In this document: positions 36,964-53,975 of the stretch, one piece after another
Layout: every line of letters begins with the position of its first letter
How positions within the stretch are numbered: the stretch's first letter is position 1
Position numbers and translations under genes: made by a program
Assembly (NCBI GenBank): GCA_040217195.1
Contig: JAVJNR010000005.1
Location: 288,001-352,000 of the forward strand
Source of the DNA: Leptospiraceae bacterium
Lineage (GTDB): Bacteria; Spirochaetota; Leptospiria; Leptospirales; Leptonemataceae
Direction: 5' to 3'
DNA length: 64,000 nucleotides
The notes under the pieces: generated by a model
Seen by the model: the letters and a program-made list of their open reading frames with translations, nothing else
The model's database searches: none
Told to the model about the DNA's origin: nothing

Positions 36964-37157
36964 CGCGTTTGGAATCTGCGATGATTGGCCCGATCGAATT
37001 GCCAGAGTCAAGGTAATCGCATCAGCGAAGTATCCAAAGAAATCAAATTGGAACGTCGCAGCAAGATGCATGAGCAACCCAGTATGGAAATCGAACTTAG
37101 CATATAACCACATGGATACTCGGTCAGTGCGATGCTTGTTGTCTTCACCGGAGCTAT

Positions 37158-37499
37158 CCGCGCAGTTCTGAACCCGGAGTTTGCCTTAAAAGCACCGTCC
37201 GCACATTTCCGAACCCGGAGTTCGCTTTAAAAGCACCATCCGCGCATTTCTGAATCCGGAGTTCGCCTAAAAACCACCATCCGCGCATTTCTGAAACCGG
37301 AGTTCGCCTAAAAACCTCCATCCGCGCATTTCCGAACCCGGAGTTCGCCCTAAATCCGCCATCCGCACATTTCCGAACCCGGAGTTCACCTGATAAGCAC
37401 CGTCCGCGCATTTCTGAACCCGGAGTTCACCTGAGAAGCACCGTCCGCGCATTTCCGAAACCGGAGTTCGCCTTAAAAGCACCGTCCGCACATTTCTGC
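37158..37499. repeat. 41-bp tandem repeat (VNTR-like), 8 full copies plus a partial copy
   Basis: Unit approximately CCGCRCATTTCYGAACCCGGAGTTCRCCT...AAGCACCRT; copies start every 41 bp from 37158 to 37486. Confidence 0.95.
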
Positions 37500-37837
37500 T
37501 GAGCCTCCTTTCTCTGCCCCTATCCACAGAGCCGGGCCGCGGAAGCTAGAAACTGGTCTGCGGCGGAAGGGTCGACCCCGAGTTCAGGAAGGACGAGTGC
37601 AGCAAATCTGTCTACGGACAGACAGCTTGCTCCGAGAGCTGGCCCCCGCAGACCCTCGATATGCACGCGACCCAAACTGTGGAGAGTTATCCCCAATTTC
37701 TTGGAAAAAATGAATAGGCCGGGTCCCAGGGGTTTGAGCTCCCTTGTAAAAAATGTAAACCTCGATACTTTCTCTGCCCCCAATATCTGGTTGGCCGAAT
37801 AAGCCACCTGATCTCGGTTGTCGAGAAAGGAGAAAAA

Positions 37838-44445: not shown

Positions 44446-44835
44446 ATGTCTAATATTCCTGATAATCTTAAATATACAAAAGACCATGAATGGGCTCTCC
44501 AGGAAGGAGATTCAGTCAAGGTCGGAATTACGGACTATGCTCAGAACTCTCTCGGCGATATAGTCTATGTTGAGGTTCGAGAGCAAGGAAACGAGGTAAA
44601 TCAGGGCGATAGTTTTGGAACCATTGAGTCGGTGAAGGCCGCAGAGGATCTGTACGCTCCCATCAAAGGAAACGTGGCTGAAGTGAACGATGACGTACTA
44701 AATGGCCCGGAAAAAGTAAACTCGGACCCCTACGGATCGTGGCTAATCAAGATGACTGGAGTCGACCAGGGAGAATTGGATGCCCTGATGGATCCGGCCG
44801 CCTATAAAGAATTCGTAGCTTCTCTCGAAGAATAA
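44446..44835 (+). CDS. gcvH: Glycine cleavage system protein H
   Basis: YTKDHEW, VGITDYAQ, lipoyl motif IESVKA, NSDPYG. Confidence 0.96.
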   Translation: MSNIPDNLKYTKDHEWALQEGDSVKVGITDYAQNSLGDIVYVEVREQGNEVNQGDSFGTIESVKAAEDLYAPIKGNVAEVNDDVLNGPEKVNSDPYGSWLIKMTGVDQGELDALMDPAAYKEFVASLEE

Positions 44836-45159
44836 TCGCCGCCGGCAAAGTTGCGAGGCCAAAGGATCTGTATTGTGTCTAACATTGCATGGCCACTGAA
44901 AGCTGGCCAGACACTAGTCCCTGAACCCGCATCCGCTCTAAATGGCATCCGAACCGCAACGGCCCGCATACCTTCTCGGACGACAGGAGCAAACCACCCT
45001 CGGGACGCAACTGAATGTGCCTAATCGCGGTGCTGAACCAGTGGCCGCTACTTAACCCTGGCGAATCCGGTGCTCACAACTGGCATGTTTTGTCATTACT
45101 ACTGCGACTCCCCCACTTCAGGATAGACAGAGGGGCCTGGCCTCAGCTCGTGCGGGCAG

Positions 45160-45657
45160 ATTATGTCTCTTCCTCCAGAGAATGGCCTGCCCCATTGTTC
45201 GGTCCAGGCTAGTTTGCCCCCAATTATTATGTCACATCGTGCAACGGAGTGGCTCCTGAGCCGGCATCCGGGGCCCATCAAAGAGATGAAGCCCCGATTA
45301 TGTCACATCCCAACTCCAGCTTCTGGACCAGAAGCCAGTTTCGAGCCGAAGCGTAGCCGGGATTATGTCGCATTAGGCAGTGATATACTCCCGCATTCCC
45401 GGCGGATGTTGGGATGTTGATTCAGGACGGTTTGGCCGGATGATTGCCTGATCTGCGATAGATTGCATCGACACGCAGTCTCCAGTAAGCCCTGTGGGAC
45501 GGGATTATTTCGCATTACCGAATTAATTCCACTGGACTGCCCTCCAGGTGCAAAGCGGAGTCTTCAGCGCAAATTATGTCACATTGCAGAAAAAGGGTTC
45601 TCTCTTAAAAATTCGATCAGCTCAATTCGGCAGCGATCGACCCAGATTCTGTCACAT
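45160..45657 (+). repeat. Regularly interspaced 12-bp direct repeat ATTATGTCACAT with unique intervening sequence
   Basis: Copies at 45160, 45226, 45297, 45362, 45504, 45573 and 45646 (0-2 mismatches each); inverted copy at 45897. Confidence 0.8.
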
Positions 45658-46003
45658 TAGTCAGAAATGCAACTCCCTGAAAGCGTAATCGAATAGTGCA
45701 ACCGGCGAACCGAATCAGGGGCCACTCTTACAGCGTATAGAGAGAGTGGGCGATTTTCCGAATCGATGGGCTCTCCCTACCCCCGGCGGCTCCGAACACT
45801 GGCATCCAGGGTCATCCGGGCGGATCCAGAGTCTCGGGAAGGGCGCCCCCCGGGCCTGAGTGTCTGATAAGCCCCCTCCTGTGCAGCATTCCAAGCATGT
45901 GACTTAAAATTTGCTGGCCAAGGTACGCCGTCCTGCAAAAATGCTTTTCATATCGAGACTTTTTGATATGTTGATATGACAGCCCCTTATCAGGAGAGCA
46001 AAA

Positions 46004-47329
46004 GTGAAATATTTTCCCATTTCCCCGGAACAGATGGAGGATCGGCTCCAATCCATAGGATTTTCGAGTACATCTGACCTATTTCGATCCATTCCCGAAG
46101 CGCTTCGAGTCCGTACTGATGCCAGGTTGCCAGCTCCGGCCTCTGAAATCGAAATCCGCCGGGAATACCAGCCTAAAGAAAGCGCCGCCATAGATCACAA
46201 CTTCATGGGAGGTAATGGTCATTACCATTATGTGCCTTCCATCATCGATCCTCTTATTTCCAGGGGAGAATTCCTCACAGCCTATACCCCGTATCAACCG
46301 GAGGTGAGCCAGGGCAGCCTCCAGGCAATGTTCGAGTTTCAGTCCATGATGGCAGACCTGATGGGCGTAGAGGTCTCCAATGCATCCCTCTATGACGGCT
46401 CCACAGCCATGATTGAAGCGGCCATGATGGCGGTCCGTGTTCGAAGGAAGAATCGAGTGGTATTCGCAGATTCCATCCATCCGGAGTATCTGGAGACAAT
46501 GCAGACCTACGCCAACAGCGGCGTGTTCGAAACTGCAATGATTAAAACCTCTCAGGATGGCCGGCTGGATATTGCTTCTCTAAAAGAGAATCTGAACGAT
46601 GACACAGCCGCTCTGGTAATCCAGTCCCCGAACTACTATGGAATCATCGAAGACGTTGCTGCTGTAAAAAAAGAACTGGAACAGCACAACATCCTGCTCA
46701 TCGTCACGGTAACCGAAGCACTGTCCATGGCTCTGGTCAAGTCCCCTGGAAGTCAGGGTGCTGACATCGTATGTGGTGAAGCTCAGTCTTTTGGAGTTCC
46801 ACTTTCCTATGGTGGACCCTGGCTTGGGTTTATTGGAACATCTCAGAAACATATGCGAAGCCTTCCCGGTCGATTGATTGGGGAAGCGAAAGATATGGAT
46901 GGTCGAAGAGCTTTTGTTGTGACTCTTGCAGCAAGAGAACAGCATATTCGCCGACAAAAGGCCACTTCCAATATCTGCACAAACCAGGGACTGATGGCCC
47001 TTCGTTGCACCATTTATCTGGAGTTGATGGGTAAGAAAGGACTTCGAAGGGCGGCCGAGCGTAGCGCCCGATTTGCCGCCCTGGGACGACAACTCTTACG
47101 GGAACAAACAGATCTCAAGCTAAAGTATCCGGATTCCCCCATATTTAACGAATTCATGATTGAAACTCCGGTGCCTGCAGAAACGGTCTTTGATCGATGC
47201 ATTAAAGGTTCGAAAATTGCCTGCGGTACGGTAGCCGGTCCAAATCAGTTGCTCATAGCATTTAATGAAACAATGAGCCCCGAGGCAGTGAAGCAATGGG
47301 TGCTATCTGTAAAGGCTGCCTCCAAATAG
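46004..47329 (+). CDS. gcvPA: Glycine dehydrogenase (decarboxylating) subunit 1
   Basis: EFLTAYTPYQPEVSQG, NASLYDG, REQHIRRQKATSNICTNQ; GTG start after AGGAG. Confidence 0.96.
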   Translation: MKYFPISPEQMEDRLQSIGFSSTSDLFRSIPEALRVRTDARLPAPASEIEIRREYQPKESAAIDHNFMGGNGHYHYVPSIIDPLISRGEFLTAYTPYQPEVSQGSLQAMFEFQSMMADLMGVEVSNASLYDGSTAMIEAAMMAVRVRRKNRVVFADSIHPEYLETMQTYANSGVFETAMIKTSQDGRLDIASLKENLNDDTAALVIQSPNYYGIIEDVAAVKKELEQHNILLIVTVTEALSMALVKSPGSQGADIVCGEAQSFGVPLSYGGPWLGFIGTSQKHMRSLPGRLIGEAKDMDGRRAFVVTLAAREQHIRRQKATSNICTNQGLMALRCTIYLELMGKKGLRRAAERSARFAALGRQLLREQTDLKLKYPDSPIFNEFMIETPVPAETVFDRCIKGSKIACGTVAGPNQLLIAFNETMSPEAVKQWVLSVKAASK

Positions 47330-49825: not shown

Positions 49826-50848
49826 CTAACCTCCGGCGCCGTTTTGGGAAGCCTCCAGTTGCCTTAAGAAAAATGCCATGCTGGACACAACCTGATGCAC
49901 CCGAAGAGGAAGATCCAGTCCATACTGAACCGTTCCATGGGAAATCAACGGAGTAAGGCAAACCCTTGCTGGAACATGATCCCTTAGATGATCATAGAGC
50001 AGCCGGGACTCCCCCGGAGGAATAACATTGTCCCGGTCCCCATGGATCAAAGTAACCGATGCCTGAATATCTGGACAATGTTGAATAACATCAATTCTTG
50101 CTGCAATCTTGCGAATCTCTGGATGATTCAGGATTCTATCCTTGATGCTTCGCCTGTAAGATGCATCGTGCAATATACGATAGAACTCCTTGCGAACGGC
50201 AGGACTCACATTGGCCAGAACAACAGGCAGTTGACGCGGATTTCTGTTCAGGCCATTGTCCAGAGCAGCCTGTTCAAAGCAATGCCTGAGACTCTGCACC
50301 TTCTTGCTTTTACCCGGTAGAAAGTTTTTTAGTACAACAAAAAAGCCATAGGGATCCCTGTCTTCAGCATCGAAGAGATGTTCCACAACAGACATTACGT
50401 GTCCAAAGGGCCCCACAAAGAGCATTGCCTTCACACTTCCAGCTGCCTTTCCGGAAGCAGCCACCATAGCCAGTGATCCAGAAAAAGAAGCAGAAAAGAC
50501 TCCTACCGGCCCCCGATTGTCCAGTTTTGAAAGTGCCATTAGATCATCTTCCATATGATGGATGCTTTCCGGATTCACGGTAAGGTTGCGAATTTCACTG
50601 TAATCAGGTAGAATCACTTCATAGCCGTTCGCAGCAAAGGCGCTGGCCAGAACATGAATTCTGGGATCCTCATTTCCCCTGGCAGTCATTCCATGTACGG
50701 CCAGAAGGGTTCCTCTAAAAGAACCATCCTCCGGTAGCACCCGAATCGCCTGCCTGCCATTCAAAGTGATGCGGGAATGCTTGCCATAGGAACGGAGACC
50801 TCTGAACATGCGGAAAACAATGCTGAGGCCTCGGCTGTAGTATCCCAT
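49826..50848 (-). CDS. Alpha/beta hydrolase fold protein
   Basis: AVHGM, SASFSG elbow, LIHGDRDNVIP, ISHG. Confidence 0.75.
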   Translation of the reverse strand: MGYYSRGLSIVFRMFRGLRSYGKHSRITLNGRQAIRVLPEDGSFRGTLLAVHGMTARGNEDPRIHVLASAFAANGYEVILPDYSEIRNLTVNPESIHHMEDDLMALSKLDNRGPVGVFSASFSGSLAMVAASGKAAGSVKAMLFVGPFGHVMSVVEHLFDAEDRDPYGFFVVLKNFLPGKSKKVQSLRHCFEQAALDNGLNRNPRQLPVVLANVSPAVRKEFYRILHDASYRRSIKDRILNHPEIRKIAARIDVIQHCPDIQASVTLIHGDRDNVIPPGESRLLYDHLRDHVPARVCLTPLISHGTVQYGLDLPLRVHQVVSSMAFFLRQLEASQNGAGG

Positions 50849-50896
50849 GGCCCCATCAGCTTATACCAAACTCAGGAAGCAATACAGATTTCAATT

Positions 50897-51907
50897 ATGG
50901 ACTTGCAGGAAACAGAACGAATGCCCAAATCCGAACGTCTGGGCTGTCTGTATTTGACCTTTCTGCAAAGGCCCGGCGGCTTGAGCTTTGAGGAGATCCG
51001 TACCCTTATGCCGCTAGCCTATACTGGCGAACCGGAATCTGCACGTCGGAAATTTGAAAGAGATAAAGAGGATCTTAAAAAACTTGGACTCACCCTGAAG
51101 CATTACTCACCAGGTGAAGCTCTTCCGGATCGAATTGGAATGGCAGACAGTCATCTGTATATTCCTGAAGATGTACCGGAGCAACTGGATAGCATTTCTC
51201 TATCATCGCGAGAAAGGGAATCACTGGCCTCCCTCCTGCTAAGATCCATTGAGTCCGAAAAAGACAATCAGAGAAAAGAGAATCTAACGTCCATCTACAT
51301 CAAACTATTCTATAACAATTTACCCGGAGAGCTACCCGGACGTAGTCCACTACTGCGGAGCGAAAGCCAATCTCATCTGTCCCCTCATTTAAATGTGGTG
51401 CAGGAATCCCTGATGAAATCCAGGGTGCTGGATGCCCGGTATGAACCCGCGGCTGGAGGTCTGGAAAAAAGGACCCTGGAAGGCCGGGGATTGATCTACT
51501 ACAGAGGTCGATGGTGTCTGGTGGCCCGATCCAGAGAAAGTGGTCAAATTCGTTTTTATTACCTGGAACGATTCAAGAGCCTGAAGCTGGGAGCGGGCAC
51601 TTTTAAGCCGGACCCTGGATTTAACCTGAAGTCCATGTCCTTGCATCCGCTGGGCATTGAAATCCATGAAGAACGAACCATCACCGTAGAAATTACCAGA
51701 GCCTTTGGTCCCATGTTCTCGAATTTCCTTTCCGGCAATGAAGAAAAGATCAGTCGGAATAAGGATGAATACAAAATCCAGACAACCAATGAGCGAGCCC
51801 TTTTCCGATGGATTCTTCAACGTCCAGAATCGTTGATTCGGATGGATTCGGAAGCGGCCAGCAGAATGGATGCTTTCCTGGCAGAAATTGAGGAGCTGTA
51901 TAAGTAA
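50897..51907 (+). CDS. HTH-WYL transcriptional regulator, PafB-like
   Basis: KSERL...SFEEIR...ARRKFERDKEDLKKLG N-terminal HTH; GRWCLVA and IRFYYLERF in the WYL domain. Confidence 0.8.
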   Translation: MDLQETERMPKSERLGCLYLTFLQRPGGLSFEEIRTLMPLAYTGEPESARRKFERDKEDLKKLGLTLKHYSPGEALPDRIGMADSHLYIPEDVPEQLDSISLSSRERESLASLLLRSIESEKDNQRKENLTSIYIKLFYNNLPGELPGRSPLLRSESQSHLSPHLNVVQESLMKSRVLDARYEPAAGGLEKRTLEGRGLIYYRGRWCLVARSRESGQIRFYYLERFKSLKLGAGTFKPDPGFNLKSMSLHPLGIEIHEERTITVEITRAFGPMFSNFLSGNEEKISRNKDEYKIQTTNERALFRWILQRPESLIRMDSEAASRMDAFLAEIEELYK

Positions 51908-51908
51908 G

Positions 51909-52865
51909 ATGCCAACTCCGGACAAATTGAAGAGATTGCTGTCTCTCATTCCTGTCATGCATGCCAATCCAGGAATCAAGATTGAAAAGCTCATGTCCCT
52001 GAGCGGGTACTCGGATCGAAAGAAGTTTACCGAGGACCTGGATAACCTCATTATGCTGGGTGTTCCCCCTTTCTCGCCCGGCGACTATGTAGACATTGCC
52101 ATCGAAGGAGATTCGGTGACTCTGGAGTTTCCCCAGGGGCTGGAAAGGCCGCTGGCCCTTTCTGCTCTGGAATGGTCCGAGCTCATAGATGCAATTCAAA
52201 AGGATATGTCTTTTCGCACAGATCAGGGATTGAATCAGGAAGAGCTCTCAGGACTGCTGGAAAGAGTGGGCAAAACTCCGGTACTATTTGAGAAGCCTCC
52301 TACGGCGGACCAGAGTCGAAGAACCATCGAACAAGCATTGAGTGAAAAACAGGCTGTGATTTTTTTATATCCGGATCGAAAGCAGCAGTCCATGGAAGAA
52401 CGTTTTGTGGATCCCTGGGCCGTAGTTACTCACCTGGGCTTAATCTATCTCGTAGGATGGGATCGAAACAAAGAGGCTCCCAGACATTTTCGTATGGACC
52501 GGGCCGGAGAGATCCGCATCAGCCCGGAAACTAGACTGGAGCCCCCTCCTGCTGACCTGGCTTCCATGATCGAGAACTCCTACATTAAGAATCCTCTGGA
52601 AACATCCGGAGATGCTAGCATTGCGTTTCGGGCATCGGTACAGAAGAACCTGCAGCGAATTCTATCTCTGTCATCTGTGAAGGACTATTCGGATCGGCCT
52701 GGCTGGAAGAAGGCTCGGTGCTCCATTAGAGATACTGCCTGGTTTAGAGAGGTGATTCGCTCCTTTGGAGAAACCATTGAGATTCTGTCCCCTGAGGAAT
52801 TGCGCCAGGAAATCCAGGAAGATGTTCATAACCTGAGGCAAAAACTTCAGGCCTACCAGAATTGA
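51909..52865 (+). CDS. HTH-WYL-WCX transcriptional regulator, PafC-like
   Basis: RLLSLIPVMHANPG, DLDNLIMLGVPPFSPGDYVD, ERPLALS, IYLVGW...RHFRMDR, ILSPEELRQ. Confidence 0.82.
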   Translation: MPTPDKLKRLLSLIPVMHANPGIKIEKLMSLSGYSDRKKFTEDLDNLIMLGVPPFSPGDYVDIAIEGDSVTLEFPQGLERPLALSALEWSELIDAIQKDMSFRTDQGLNQEELSGLLERVGKTPVLFEKPPTADQSRRTIEQALSEKQAVIFLYPDRKQQSMEERFVDPWAVVTHLGLIYLVGWDRNKEAPRHFRMDRAGEIRISPETRLEPPPADLASMIENSYIKNPLETSGDASIAFRASVQKNLQRILSLSSVKDYSDRPGWKKARCSIRDTAWFREVIRSFGETIEILSPEELRQEIQEDVHNLRQKLQAYQN

Positions 52866-52892
52866 ACTAAAATTCTATAAAGCCAGCCCGAA

Positions 52893-53975
52893 ATGGAGCC
52901 CAGCACCCCGGTCGGCTTTTTCGGGAATTTACATCCAGTCCTCCAGGGTACTAACGTACCTGCCGAAAATGTTACTGTGGCTGTTGCGGAAGAGTACCAG
53001 AGTTATTTACAAAGCTTTAGAACCAACCTTGAGGTAGAAAGAGATCTTTCTCCACACAGTGTCAGAGCCTATCTTTCGGACCTGGAAGAGTTTCTGCTAT
53101 TTCTGCAATCCGAAGATTTGCAACCCGAGCAATGTGATGCCAGGATACTTCGCTCCTTTTTTACAGCTCGCACCGGAGTTGATTTCTCTCGAAATCCTCT
53201 AAAGTCCGATCCACGGGCGGTAACCGGAAAAACAGGTCACAGAAAACTATCGGCCAGAAGTCAGGCCAGAAAACTATCCACACTACGATTGTTCTTTCGT
53301 CAGTTAATGAAGCAGGGTAAGATCAAATCCAATCCAGCCAGAGATTTGCCCTCTCCCAGATTTTATCGCGCTCTTCCTGGAGTACTGCGTCCTGGAGAAC
53401 TGGAAAATGTTCTGGAGGCACCCACATCCACTGAATCCATCGAGCCCAATCGAAGACTGCGCAAAGACGTAGGCGAAGCGGTTAAGTCCAGAGACAGGGC
53501 TATTTTTGAAACACTGTATTCCACAGGTATGCGAATCTCCGAATTATTGTCCCTCAATCTGGACGATGTAGAAAACCTTCCCGATCGAATCAAGATCACA
53601 GGTAAAGGAAGCAAGCAGCGAATTGTATTTGTGGGCGAAGAAGCCAGGCTTGCTCTTGCCCGATACATGAAATTAAGGCCTCAACTACGTCCGGAGAATG
53701 GTGCCCTATTTTGCAACGCCAGGGGCGGTCCACTTACTGATCGTGGAGTGCGCGACCGAATGCAGAAGTATGCCCGCCAGCTCGGTTTGAGCAAATTGCA
53801 TCCACATAAGCTTCGACATTCCTTTGCCACAGATCTATTGAATGAAGGCGCAGACATTCGAGCAGTGCAGGAGATGCTGGGACATAGCAGCCTTTCCACA
53901 ACGCAGATCTATACATCGGTCAGCAAGGACCGTCTCAGGGATATTTATCGCAACTGCCACCCCAGAGGGCATTGA
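52893..53975 (+). CDS. xerC: Tyrosine recombinase, XerC/XerD family (start may be the downstream GTG at 52977)
   Basis: LSPHSVRAYLSDL; catalytic residues in TGMRISE, GKGSK, HKLRHSFAT and LGHSSLSTTQIY. Confidence 0.85.
   Translation: MEPSTPVGFFGNLHPVLQGTNVPAENVTVAVAEEYQSYLQSFRTNLEVERDLSPHSVRAYLSDLEEFLLFLQSEDLQPEQCDARILRSFFTARTGVDFSRNPLKSDPRAVTGKTGHRKLSARSQARKLSTLRLFFRQLMKQGKIKSNPARDLPSPRFYRALPGVLRPGELENVLEAPTSTESIEPNRRLRKDVGEAVKSRDRAIFETLYSTGMRISELLSLNLDDVENLPDRIKITGKGSKQRIVFVGEEARLALARYMKLRPQLRPENGALFCNARGGPLTDRGVRDRMQKYARQLGLSKLHPHKLRHSFATDLLNEGADIRAVQEMLGHSSLSTTQIYTSVSKDRLRDIYRNCHPRGH

What the first reader, a model, noticed from the sequence alone, without database searches (positions are those of the whole stretch)
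45014..45908. Regularly interspaced array of a 12-bp motif (ATTATGTCACAT) inside a 1.17-kb gap in the gcv operon
Seen: gcvH and gcvPA, usually adjacent, are separated by about 1.17 kb with no convincing gene. Seven same-orientation copies of the motif occur at 45160, 45226, 45297, 45362, 45504, 45573 and 45646 (gaps 66, 71, 65, 142, 69, 73). Degenerate matches sit in register at about 45014, 45087 and 45430, and an inverted copy at 45897. The ~55-60 bp spacers are unrelated to each other and the motif falls in different reading frames, so the constraint is at DNA or RNA level. The period is CRISPR-like but the repeat is far too short and no cas genes are present. Established: the E. coli dif XerD arm with its preceding base is ATTATGTTAAAT (10/12 match), but no XerC arm lies 6 bp upstream, so these would be half-sites; a Xer-family recombinase gene is about 7 kb downstream. 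Inferred alternatives: (a) a phased loading array for a DNA-binding or chromosome-organising protein, (b) scars of repeated recombinase-mediated capture of short DNA pieces, (c) a transcribed array processed into small RNAs, (d) a lineage-specific short intergenic repeat.
Basis: partly seen in the sequence, partly recalled or inferred. Interest (0 to 1): 0.75.

Follow-up and report, generated by a model that had tools for sequence, protein, structure and literature searches.

The report
Natural array of XerD docking sites
The repeated 12-base word is the half of this bacterial lineage's chromosome-separation site (dif) that the recombinase XerD binds, and it also occurs alone at dozens of promoters for flagella, division and replication genes and in tandem arrays like this one, which suggests XerD has a second, chromosome-wide job in Leptospira and its relatives.

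Summary
The seven copies are real; the three 'in-register' degenerate copies are background. The motif ATTATGTCNCAT is the XerD arm of this lineage's dif site (ACTTCCGATAA-N6-TTATGTCNCAT, one per replicon, at the skew/KOPS switches; matches published Leptospira dif). Without its XerC arm it occurs 44 times in the genome (about 1 expected), 41 of 44 intergenic. It is enriched across most Leptospiria genomes searched. Lone sites recur at orthologous promoters of flagellar, division and replication genes across five families. Arrays arise by tandem duplication at a fixed set of gaps: the same gcv gap holds 34- and 37-bp arrays in sister species, so 70 bp is not special. Best reading: a natural XerD-only docking array, like B. 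subtilis XDS (SMC unloading sites), but spread along the chromosome arms. Boldest reading: XerD doubles as a cell-cycle transcription regulator. No binding was shown. CRISPR-like, capture-scar and sRNA readings are unsupported. The scan earlier noted one lone XerD arm in another genome (e1-1884150).

The parts
44446..44835 (+). gcvH, left flank
   Evidence: PF01597
44836..46003 (.). 1168-bp gcvH-gcvPA gap; 288-953 bp in five sister species, 8-91 bp in seven other genera of the family
45160..45171 (+). XerD half-site 1 (one constrained position off; three other strains carry the consensus)
45226..45237 (+). XerD half-site 2 (exact)
45297..45308 (+). XerD half-site 3 (exact)
45362..45373 (+). 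XerD half-site 4 (exact; G at the free position)
45504..45515 (+). XerD half-site 5 (one mismatch to ATTATGTCNCAT)
45573..45584 (+). XerD half-site 6 (exact)
45646..45657 (+). XerD half-site 7 (one mismatch; free position differs between strains)
45897..45908 (-). Inverted variant half-site at the start of the conserved gcvPA upstream block; kept in G002, G004 and G005, with the free base varying
45896..46003 (+). 108-bp block 85-93% identical across four genomes of the genus; probable gcvPA promoter/leader (inference)
46004..47329 (+). gcvPA, right flank
   Evidence: PF02347
52893..53975 (+). XerC-like recombinase. Not the inferred reader (XerD is at G000:C10:700545-701432), so its closeness is probably incidental
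   Evidence: TIGR02224 296.9 bits, below cut-off 335; the C10 gene scores TIGR02225 373.5 bits, above cut-off 329.6

Best explanation
The array is a seven-site docking pad for XerD acting without XerC. SHOWN by sequence: each copy is the XerD arm of the lineage's dif site with no XerC arm beside it. Such lone arms are over-represented, intergenic and conserved, and arrays grow from single sites by tandem duplication while the spacers drift. INFERRED: XerD binds them in the cell. With no XerC arm the sites should not recombine. The clustered copies hold enough XerD to act like an XDS array, a roadblock or unloading point for Smc-ScpAB on the chromosome arm, and they also act as a sink that sets how much XerD is free for single sites.
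For: (1) Three full dif sites in G000, one per replicon: C5:423391, C8:51859, C9:32124. Each arm is within 1 mismatch; three further hits of the loose scan had 3 mismatches in the XerC arm and 2 in the XerD arm. GC skew and KOPS polarity flip near the C5 site, and the C8 skew peaks 4 kb from its site. (2) Published dif predictions for Leptospira have this form (PMC3025954 supplement; PMC13342612 supplement). In the Kono table TTATGTCACA/TTATGTCGCA occur only in Leptospira rows. (3) The XerD arm is exactly TTATGTCNCAT, free base included, in 21 of 30 fetched dif loci of the class and within 2 mismatches in the other 9; 22 of 26 in a second class. (4) 44 exact copies against 1.04 expected; 41 of 44 intergenic against 15.6% background. 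The exact XerC arm occurs once. (5) Cross-over control: genus g57, whose dif arm is TTATGTTAACT (9 of 13), has 397 copies of its own arm against 82 control in 13 genomes, and 30 against 34 of this arm in 29 genomes. G000 has 2 against 1 of the other arm type. (6) Selection: spacers are fully diverged yet seven motifs are kept. Among strains, 2 of 7 free positions differ but only 1 of 77 constrained ones, and there the other strains carry the consensus (Fisher p=0.017). (7) Arrays sit in the same few gaps across the genus, with different unit lengths. (8) smc and scpA are present. A secondary source says an artificial XDS array blocks Smc-ScpAB and forms a boundary (PMC11840125 passage).
Against: No binding, Hi-C or expression data. 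Sites are not terminus-restricted as XDS are reported to be: 27 loci on the G005 chromosome are uniform (KS p=0.81; 7 of 27 in the terminal third), and arrays lie at 0.27-0.72 of the origin-to-dif path. Unloading SMC there could cut arm alignment short. The array is dispensable: G004 has none in this gap, G001 and G003 have one site. Genera g2 and g24 are at background for lone sites although g2 has the same dif arm, and both carry FliF. Spacer against constrained-site variation among strains is not significant (19 of 414 against 1 of 77, p=0.34; 6 differences were not displayed).
Confidence: 0.6

Rival explanations
1. XerD moonlights as a transcription regulator. Single half-sites in promoters control flagellar, division and replication genes. 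Arrays such as this one titrate XerD or strengthen local control (here of gcvPA, or of antisense transcription into gcvH). Compatible with the best explanation.
For: 15 orthologue groups carry an exact site within about 300 bp of the start in 2 or more of five families, and 5 groups in 3 or more (random-placement null: mean 0.07-0.28, maximum 3-4 in 5000 draws). They are fliO, fliG, fliF, flhF, ftsQ, rsmH/mraW, smc, gyrA, a UvrD/PcrA helicase, a SNF2 helicase, the chromosome-II rep gene, SpiroCoCo, a DegT aminotransferase, an MptE-like gene and an M23 peptidase. Others appear in fewer genomes: flgC, fliE, fliP, fliI, fliJ, fliL, fliY, ftsZ, mraZ, dnaA, a DnaA paralogue, dnaE, lexA, nrdJ. In L. 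interrogans TSS windows the site overlaps the -10 region of one gene and abuts a TTGACA of another (PMC5243855 supplement). XerD is 51-64% identical across the class against about 31-40% for the second Xer hits.
Against: In g57, 0 of 23 scanned neighbours of lone arms were flagellar, division or replication genes. At the 2-family level the count of 15 is inside the null if only 500 heads are shared (maximum 18). The gcv array points away from gcvPA and lies 350-850 bp from its start. There is no clear conserved exact site upstream of xerD in 30 loci.
Confidence: 0.3
2. Arrays are by-products: minisatellites or dispersed repeats seeded at XerD half-sites (for example by XerD nicking and repair), tolerated but without a job.
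For: 73 loci in the species-representative collection hold three or more exact copies; most are young tandem repeats of 29-53 bp, and in some genomes they form dispersed families sharing a unit. In G040 many sites lie in a repeated DUF1564 element. Array presence is patchy between sister species.
Against: Old arrays, including this one, keep their motifs after the spacers have lost all similarity. The same gaps are used across the genus.
Confidence: 0.15
3. An unrelated transcription factor or sigma factor reads the word, and the identity with the dif arm is coincidence or co-option.
For: Promoter location; the ATGNGACATAAT strand faces a gene start in 52 of 69 intergenic sites in G000; it ends in a -10-like CATAAT.
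Against: The enriched word switches with the dif arm between lineages. The TATAAT variant is absent among 52 one-mismatch sites. Position and strand relative to the TSS vary. The DnaA paralogue was found almost only in family f1, and the chromosome-II Rep was not found in G044, G186 or G282, which have the motif.
Confidence: 0.1
4. CRISPR-like memory, scars of recombinase-mediated capture, or a processed small-RNA array.
For: Unique spacers; the array folds better than shuffles (z -3.6 on +, -2.3 on -).
Against: No spacer match in the genome, phages or plasmids. No Rfam hit. Sister arrays are tandem duplications. No unit gain or loss in four runs. Six other arrays do not fold better than shuffles (z 0.2 to 2.9), and 2 of 14 random intergenic 520-mers reach -3.0.
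Confidence: 0.03

Closest known systems
XDS, the XerD-specific sites of Bacillus subtilis (Karaboja et al. 2021; not held, known from passages in PMC11840125, PMC11894783, PMC12322038, PMC13342612 and from recall)
   Same: dif-like sites away from dif; host has XerD and Smc-ScpA; an array of them is reported to block SMC.
   Different: XDS are reported in the terminus region and the array was artificial. Here there are tens of sites spread along both arms, at conserved promoters and replication origins, with natural tandem arrays.
dif / XerCD (Leptospira dif predicted in PMC3025954 and PMC13342612)
   Same: The 11-bp arm is identical, including the free base.
   Different: No XerC arm, no 6-bp core, many copies, mid-arm position.
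MatP/matS of E. coli (passage in PMC11894783)
   Same: Many short sites that would control where an SMC complex acts.
   Different: Dedicated protein, terminus-restricted; palindromic site (recalled).
CtrA regulon of Caulobacter, and DnaA-box clusters such as datA (recalled, not looked up)
   Same: Target set of early flagellar, division and replication genes plus origins; clusters that could titrate the protein.
   Different: Different protein and motif. Here the inferred reader is a tyrosine recombinase, and regulation is untested.
CRISPR arrays
   Same: Short repeat with unique spacers at a roughly regular period.
   Different: 12-bp repeat shared with dif, tandem-duplication origin, no spacer targets.

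Membership tests
dif site | 11-bp XerC arm, 6-bp core, 11-bp XerD arm | tested here: not met
   The upstream 11-mers of the seven copies have 8-9 mismatches to the XerC arm.
dif site | One per replicon near the terminus | tested here: not met
   C4 skew is negative throughout; the true site is at C5:423391.
XDS-like XerD-only site | Sequence equals the host's XerD arm, XerC arm absent | tested here: met
XDS-like XerD-only site | Host encodes XerD and Smc-ScpAB | tested here: met
   XerD, SMC, ScpA; ScpB not scanned.
XDS-like XerD-only site | Confined to the terminus region | tested here: not met
   Uniform along the G005 chromosome, KS p=0.81.
XDS-like XerD-only site | Bound by XerD in vivo without XerC; unloads SMC | not testable with these tools
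   Needs ChIP-seq and Hi-C.
Transcription-factor operator | Conserved at orthologous promoters | tested here: met
   5 groups shared by 3 or more of five families against 0.07-0.28 expected. For the gcv gap itself, only within the genus.
Transcription-factor operator | Changes transcription when bound | not testable with these tools
   No usable RNA data; two RNA runs held under 10% of the words.
Sigma-70 -10 element | Fixed distance and strand to the TSS; tolerates TATAAT | tested here: not met
CRISPR array | 23-55-bp repeat, foreign spacers, polarised gain | tested here: not met
   12-bp repeat; no spacer hits; no unit gain or loss. cas genes were not searched.
Tandem repeat (minisatellite) | Units align over their whole length | tested here: inconclusive
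   Not met in this array (232 of 500 shuffles); met in the same gap of G005 (0 of 500) and visibly in G002.

The most novel reading that the evidence does not exclude
In Leptospira and its relatives the chromosome-dimer resolvase XerD has been co-opted as a master regulator. Bound alone at half-sites, it controls the promoters of early flagellar, division and replication genes and sits in the origins of all replicons, while natural tandem arrays such as this one titrate it and fence SMC loop extrusion. This would couple late chromosome segregation to the next round of motility and division gene expression.
Probability: 0.3. Interest if true: 0.92.

Novelty: new variant of a known kind. Interest (0 to 1): 0.74.

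Why it matters
Few regulatory motifs are known in Leptospira: a genome-wide TSS study reported only sigma-54 sites and two repeat-derived motifs (PMC5243855 passages). This work gives a conserved motif, a named candidate reader and a target list, all testable in a harmless cultured species. XerD-only sites are described as terminus SMC-unloading sites in B. subtilis. Chromosome-wide sites, natural arrays and promoter placement would extend that to a second job for a universal recombinase, and would bear on how spirochaetes time flagellar assembly, division and the replication of several replicons.

Tried and rejected
Sigma -10 element: rejected. DnaA box: oriC at C2:75-76.6 kb has near-canonical boxes and only one weak motif copy. 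DnaA paralogue or chromosome-II Rep as reader: wrong distribution. HemR, LexA, CtrA and MtrA motifs: recalled resemblances only, not tested. KOPS-like polarity: 14 loci on the leading strand against 23 on the lagging strand. A 2 x 35-bp origin of the 70-bp period: no remnant at half-period. Loss of flagella as the reason some genera lack lone sites: FliF is present in 5 of 5 tested. xerD autoregulation: only 2-mismatch hits in 30 loci. Structured RNA: not general. No sigma-70 promoter match in the gap. Literature searches that found no description of the lone motif: (open-access library only; bioRxiv supplements unseen; file 5 of PMC5243855 was not searched and file 7 is stored cut). The primary XDS paper could not be read, so XDS number, consensus and position are second-hand.

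Full report
Observation. All eight window matches to the 12-mer with up to two mismatches lie in the gcvH-gcvPA gap: seven on + at the stated coordinates and one inverted at 45897. A matrix built from other sites in the genome separates the seven (15-26 bits) from shuffles (best hit 3.4 on average). It puts the proposed copies at 45014, 45087 and 45430 at background. The spacers are unrelated to each other and match nothing in the genome, in phages or in plasmids. Rfam gives nothing. Contigs of four other marine metagenomes cover the gap in whole or part, with a few percent of substitutions and no gain or loss of units.

The motif is genome-wide. Its consensus is ATTATGTCNCAT: 44 exact copies against 1.04 expected under an order-5 Markov model, 41 of them intergenic against 15.6% background. 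Four other arrays have periods of about 40, 36, 33 and 29-33 bp, and a pair on C9 is 28 bp apart. Among 151 genomes of the class, most hold from six to several hundred copies against 0-3 for the reversed control. Genera g2 and g24 and part of f4 are at background. A second class of the phylum is also enriched, and most other families are not. Titles of related records place the lineage in the Leptospirales.

What the motif is. Some copies have ACTTCCGATAA six bases upstream. G000 has three such sites, on C5, C8 and C9, each arm within one mismatch; three looser hits had five mismatches in all. GC skew and KOPS polarity reverse near the C5 site, and the C8 skew peaks 4 kb from its site. This is dif: the same form is listed for Leptospira in two published tables (supplements of PMC3025954 and PMC13342612). 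The exact XerC arm plus TTATG occurs one to three times in 60 of 151 genomes; variants of the XerC arm were seen in some of the others. The XerD arm is TTATGTCNCAT in 21 of 30 fetched sites and within two mismatches in the rest. The lone motif is therefore the XerD arm plus the adjoining A. None of the seven array copies has an XerC arm. XerD is at C10:700545-701432, and the window's recombinase is XerC-like. Against E. coli XerD, the segment RQTFW reads RKSVW here; that this segment sets arm specificity is recalled, not tested.

Cross-over control. Genus g57 has a different dif arm, TTATGTTAACT in 9 of 13 sites; some of its dif sites are identical to the published Brachyspira one. It holds 397 copies of its own arm type against 82 control in 13 genomes, but 30 against 34 of the Leptospira-type arm in 29 genomes. 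G000 holds 2 against 1 of the other type, and one E. coli chromosome 2 against 1. The enriched word follows each lineage's dif arm. This is the strongest argument that XerD itself reads it. Binding was not shown.

How the array arose. The same gap holds six copies at 34 bp in G002, two units being identical. It holds five at 37 bp with related spacers in G005, one site in G001 and in G003, and none in G004; in seven other genera the gap is 8-91 bp. Apart from the motif and the last 108 bp, these gaps do not align. Arrays recur across the genus in the same few gaps: rpsD-serB, upstream of lexA, upstream of groES, beside an ampH-like gene near dnaX, and gcv. In the species-representative collection, 73 loci hold three or more exact copies 26-56 bp apart. 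Most are young tandem repeats, mainly from Leptospiria-type records and one heavily represented MAG with another label, with single loci labelled Tannerella, Aminicenantes and Hydrogenedentota. I infer tandem duplication of a unit around one site, then drift of the spacer. That this array keeps seven motifs after complete spacer divergence suggests selection. Strain data agree weakly: 2 of 7 free positions differ, 1 of 77 constrained (towards consensus in the other strains), and 19 of 414 spacer positions; p=0.017 and p=0.34; six differences were not displayed.

Where lone sites sit. I mapped gene starts near exact sites in 14 genomes of five families, using all sites except 30 of 69 in G040, 30 of 46 in G005 and 30 of 49 in G044. 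Fifteen orthologue groups are shared by two or more families and five by three or more. The null gives 0.07-0.28 for three (maximum 3-4 in 5000) and 4-8 for two (maximum 13-18). They are mostly flagellar (fliO, fliG, fliF, flhF), division (ftsQ, rsmH/mraW, an M23 peptidase) and chromosome genes (smc, gyrA, helicases, chromosome-II rep). Sites also flank dnaA in several genomes and the par/rep loci of secondary replicons; four loci, three at secondary replicons and one upstream of a dnaA-like gene, hold two inverted XerD arms six bases apart. The listed L. biflexa oriC holds three GACATAA cores. In L. interrogans TSS windows the site lies at different positions and on either strand, as an operator would and a sigma element would not. 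Against a universal regulon: in g57, 22 of 30 sites were intergenic, but none of 23 neighbours scanned was a flagellar, division or replication gene.

Mechanism. Secondary sources state that B. subtilis XerD unloads Smc-ScpAB at dif-like XDS sites in the terminus, and that an artificial XDS array blocks SMC and forms a boundary (passages; the primary paper was not held). This genome has SMC and ScpA. The simplest job for a seven-site pad is therefore the same roadblock, combined with titration of XerD. The main difficulty is position: sites are uniform along the G005 chromosome (p=0.81), and the gcv array lies 624 kb from dif. Sister species also manage without it. The promoter placement makes transcriptional control by XerD a serious second reading (0.3), and by-product amplification (0.15) cannot be excluded for any single array. 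The array's folding z-score of -3.6 is not shared by six other arrays and is unexplained.

Novelty. Ten searches of the open-access library found no description of the lone motif or of natural XerD-arm arrays; subscription papers were not searchable. Papers seen: passages and supplement rows of PMC5243855, PMC3025954 and PMC13342612; passages of PMC11840125, PMC11894783, PMC12322038, PMC8242196, PMC2229662 and PMC4338851; reference lines only of PMC12479847. Verdict: a new variant of a known kind (XDS-like sites), interest 0.74.

Noticed in passing
G000:C5:323647-324966 (L179): A second, full-length DnaA-like protein with its own C-terminal DNA-binding domain, found almost only in family f1. 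A XerD half-site lies upstream of the best DnaA-family match in most family genomes fetched.
   Followed up: partly
L083/L084, L108, L113, L185: Two inverted XerD arms six bases apart (a dif-shaped site with no XerC arm) at chromosome-II and plasmid loci and upstream of a dnaA-like gene; possible XerD homodimer sites.
   Followed up: partly
genus g57, L448-L477: Lone copies of the classic XerD arm are enriched about fivefold in this Brachyspira-like genus, next to metabolic and transport genes.
   Followed up: partly
L344, L350, L369, L388 and similar: Long young tandem arrays (up to 26 units of 43-53 bp) whose units carry a second conserved word such as GGTAGATAAC or GGTAGGTAC of unknown reader.
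   Followed up: no
L363:243-418: Five-copy array directly upstream of a xerC-like gene and a uvrC-like gene (name recalled) in a record labelled Hydrogenedentota; it may be mislabelled.
   Followed up: partly
G040 loci L117-L146; L096, L103, L108, L113: Many sites ride in a repeated element with DUF1564 genes, or sit just upstream of LBL_2463-family genes; in two the CATAAT ends 6 nt before an ATG.
   Followed up: no
several genomes (L092, L109, L233, L256): The motif overlaps a possible start codon, giving predicted proteins that begin MRHN (ftsQ, rsmH, DegT family).
   Followed up: no
window 45896-46003: Conserved gcvPA upstream block with repeated GATAT words; perhaps a separate operator.
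   Followed up: no
window 50777-53975: PafB/PafC-like WYL gene pair directly upstream of the xerC-like gene.
   Followed up: no
window 44600-45082 against 45083-46300: Run X1 is identical to the window left of 45082 but has 37 differences to the right, which suggests a recombination patch between strains.
   Followed up: no
G000:C9: 82-kb contig with par/rep genes, phage-like genes, its own dif and a motif pair shared exactly with G002, G004 and G006.
   Followed up: no
window 37154-37527: Short ORFs with internally repeated peptide patterns suggest a tandem repeat in this intergenic stretch.
   Followed up: no
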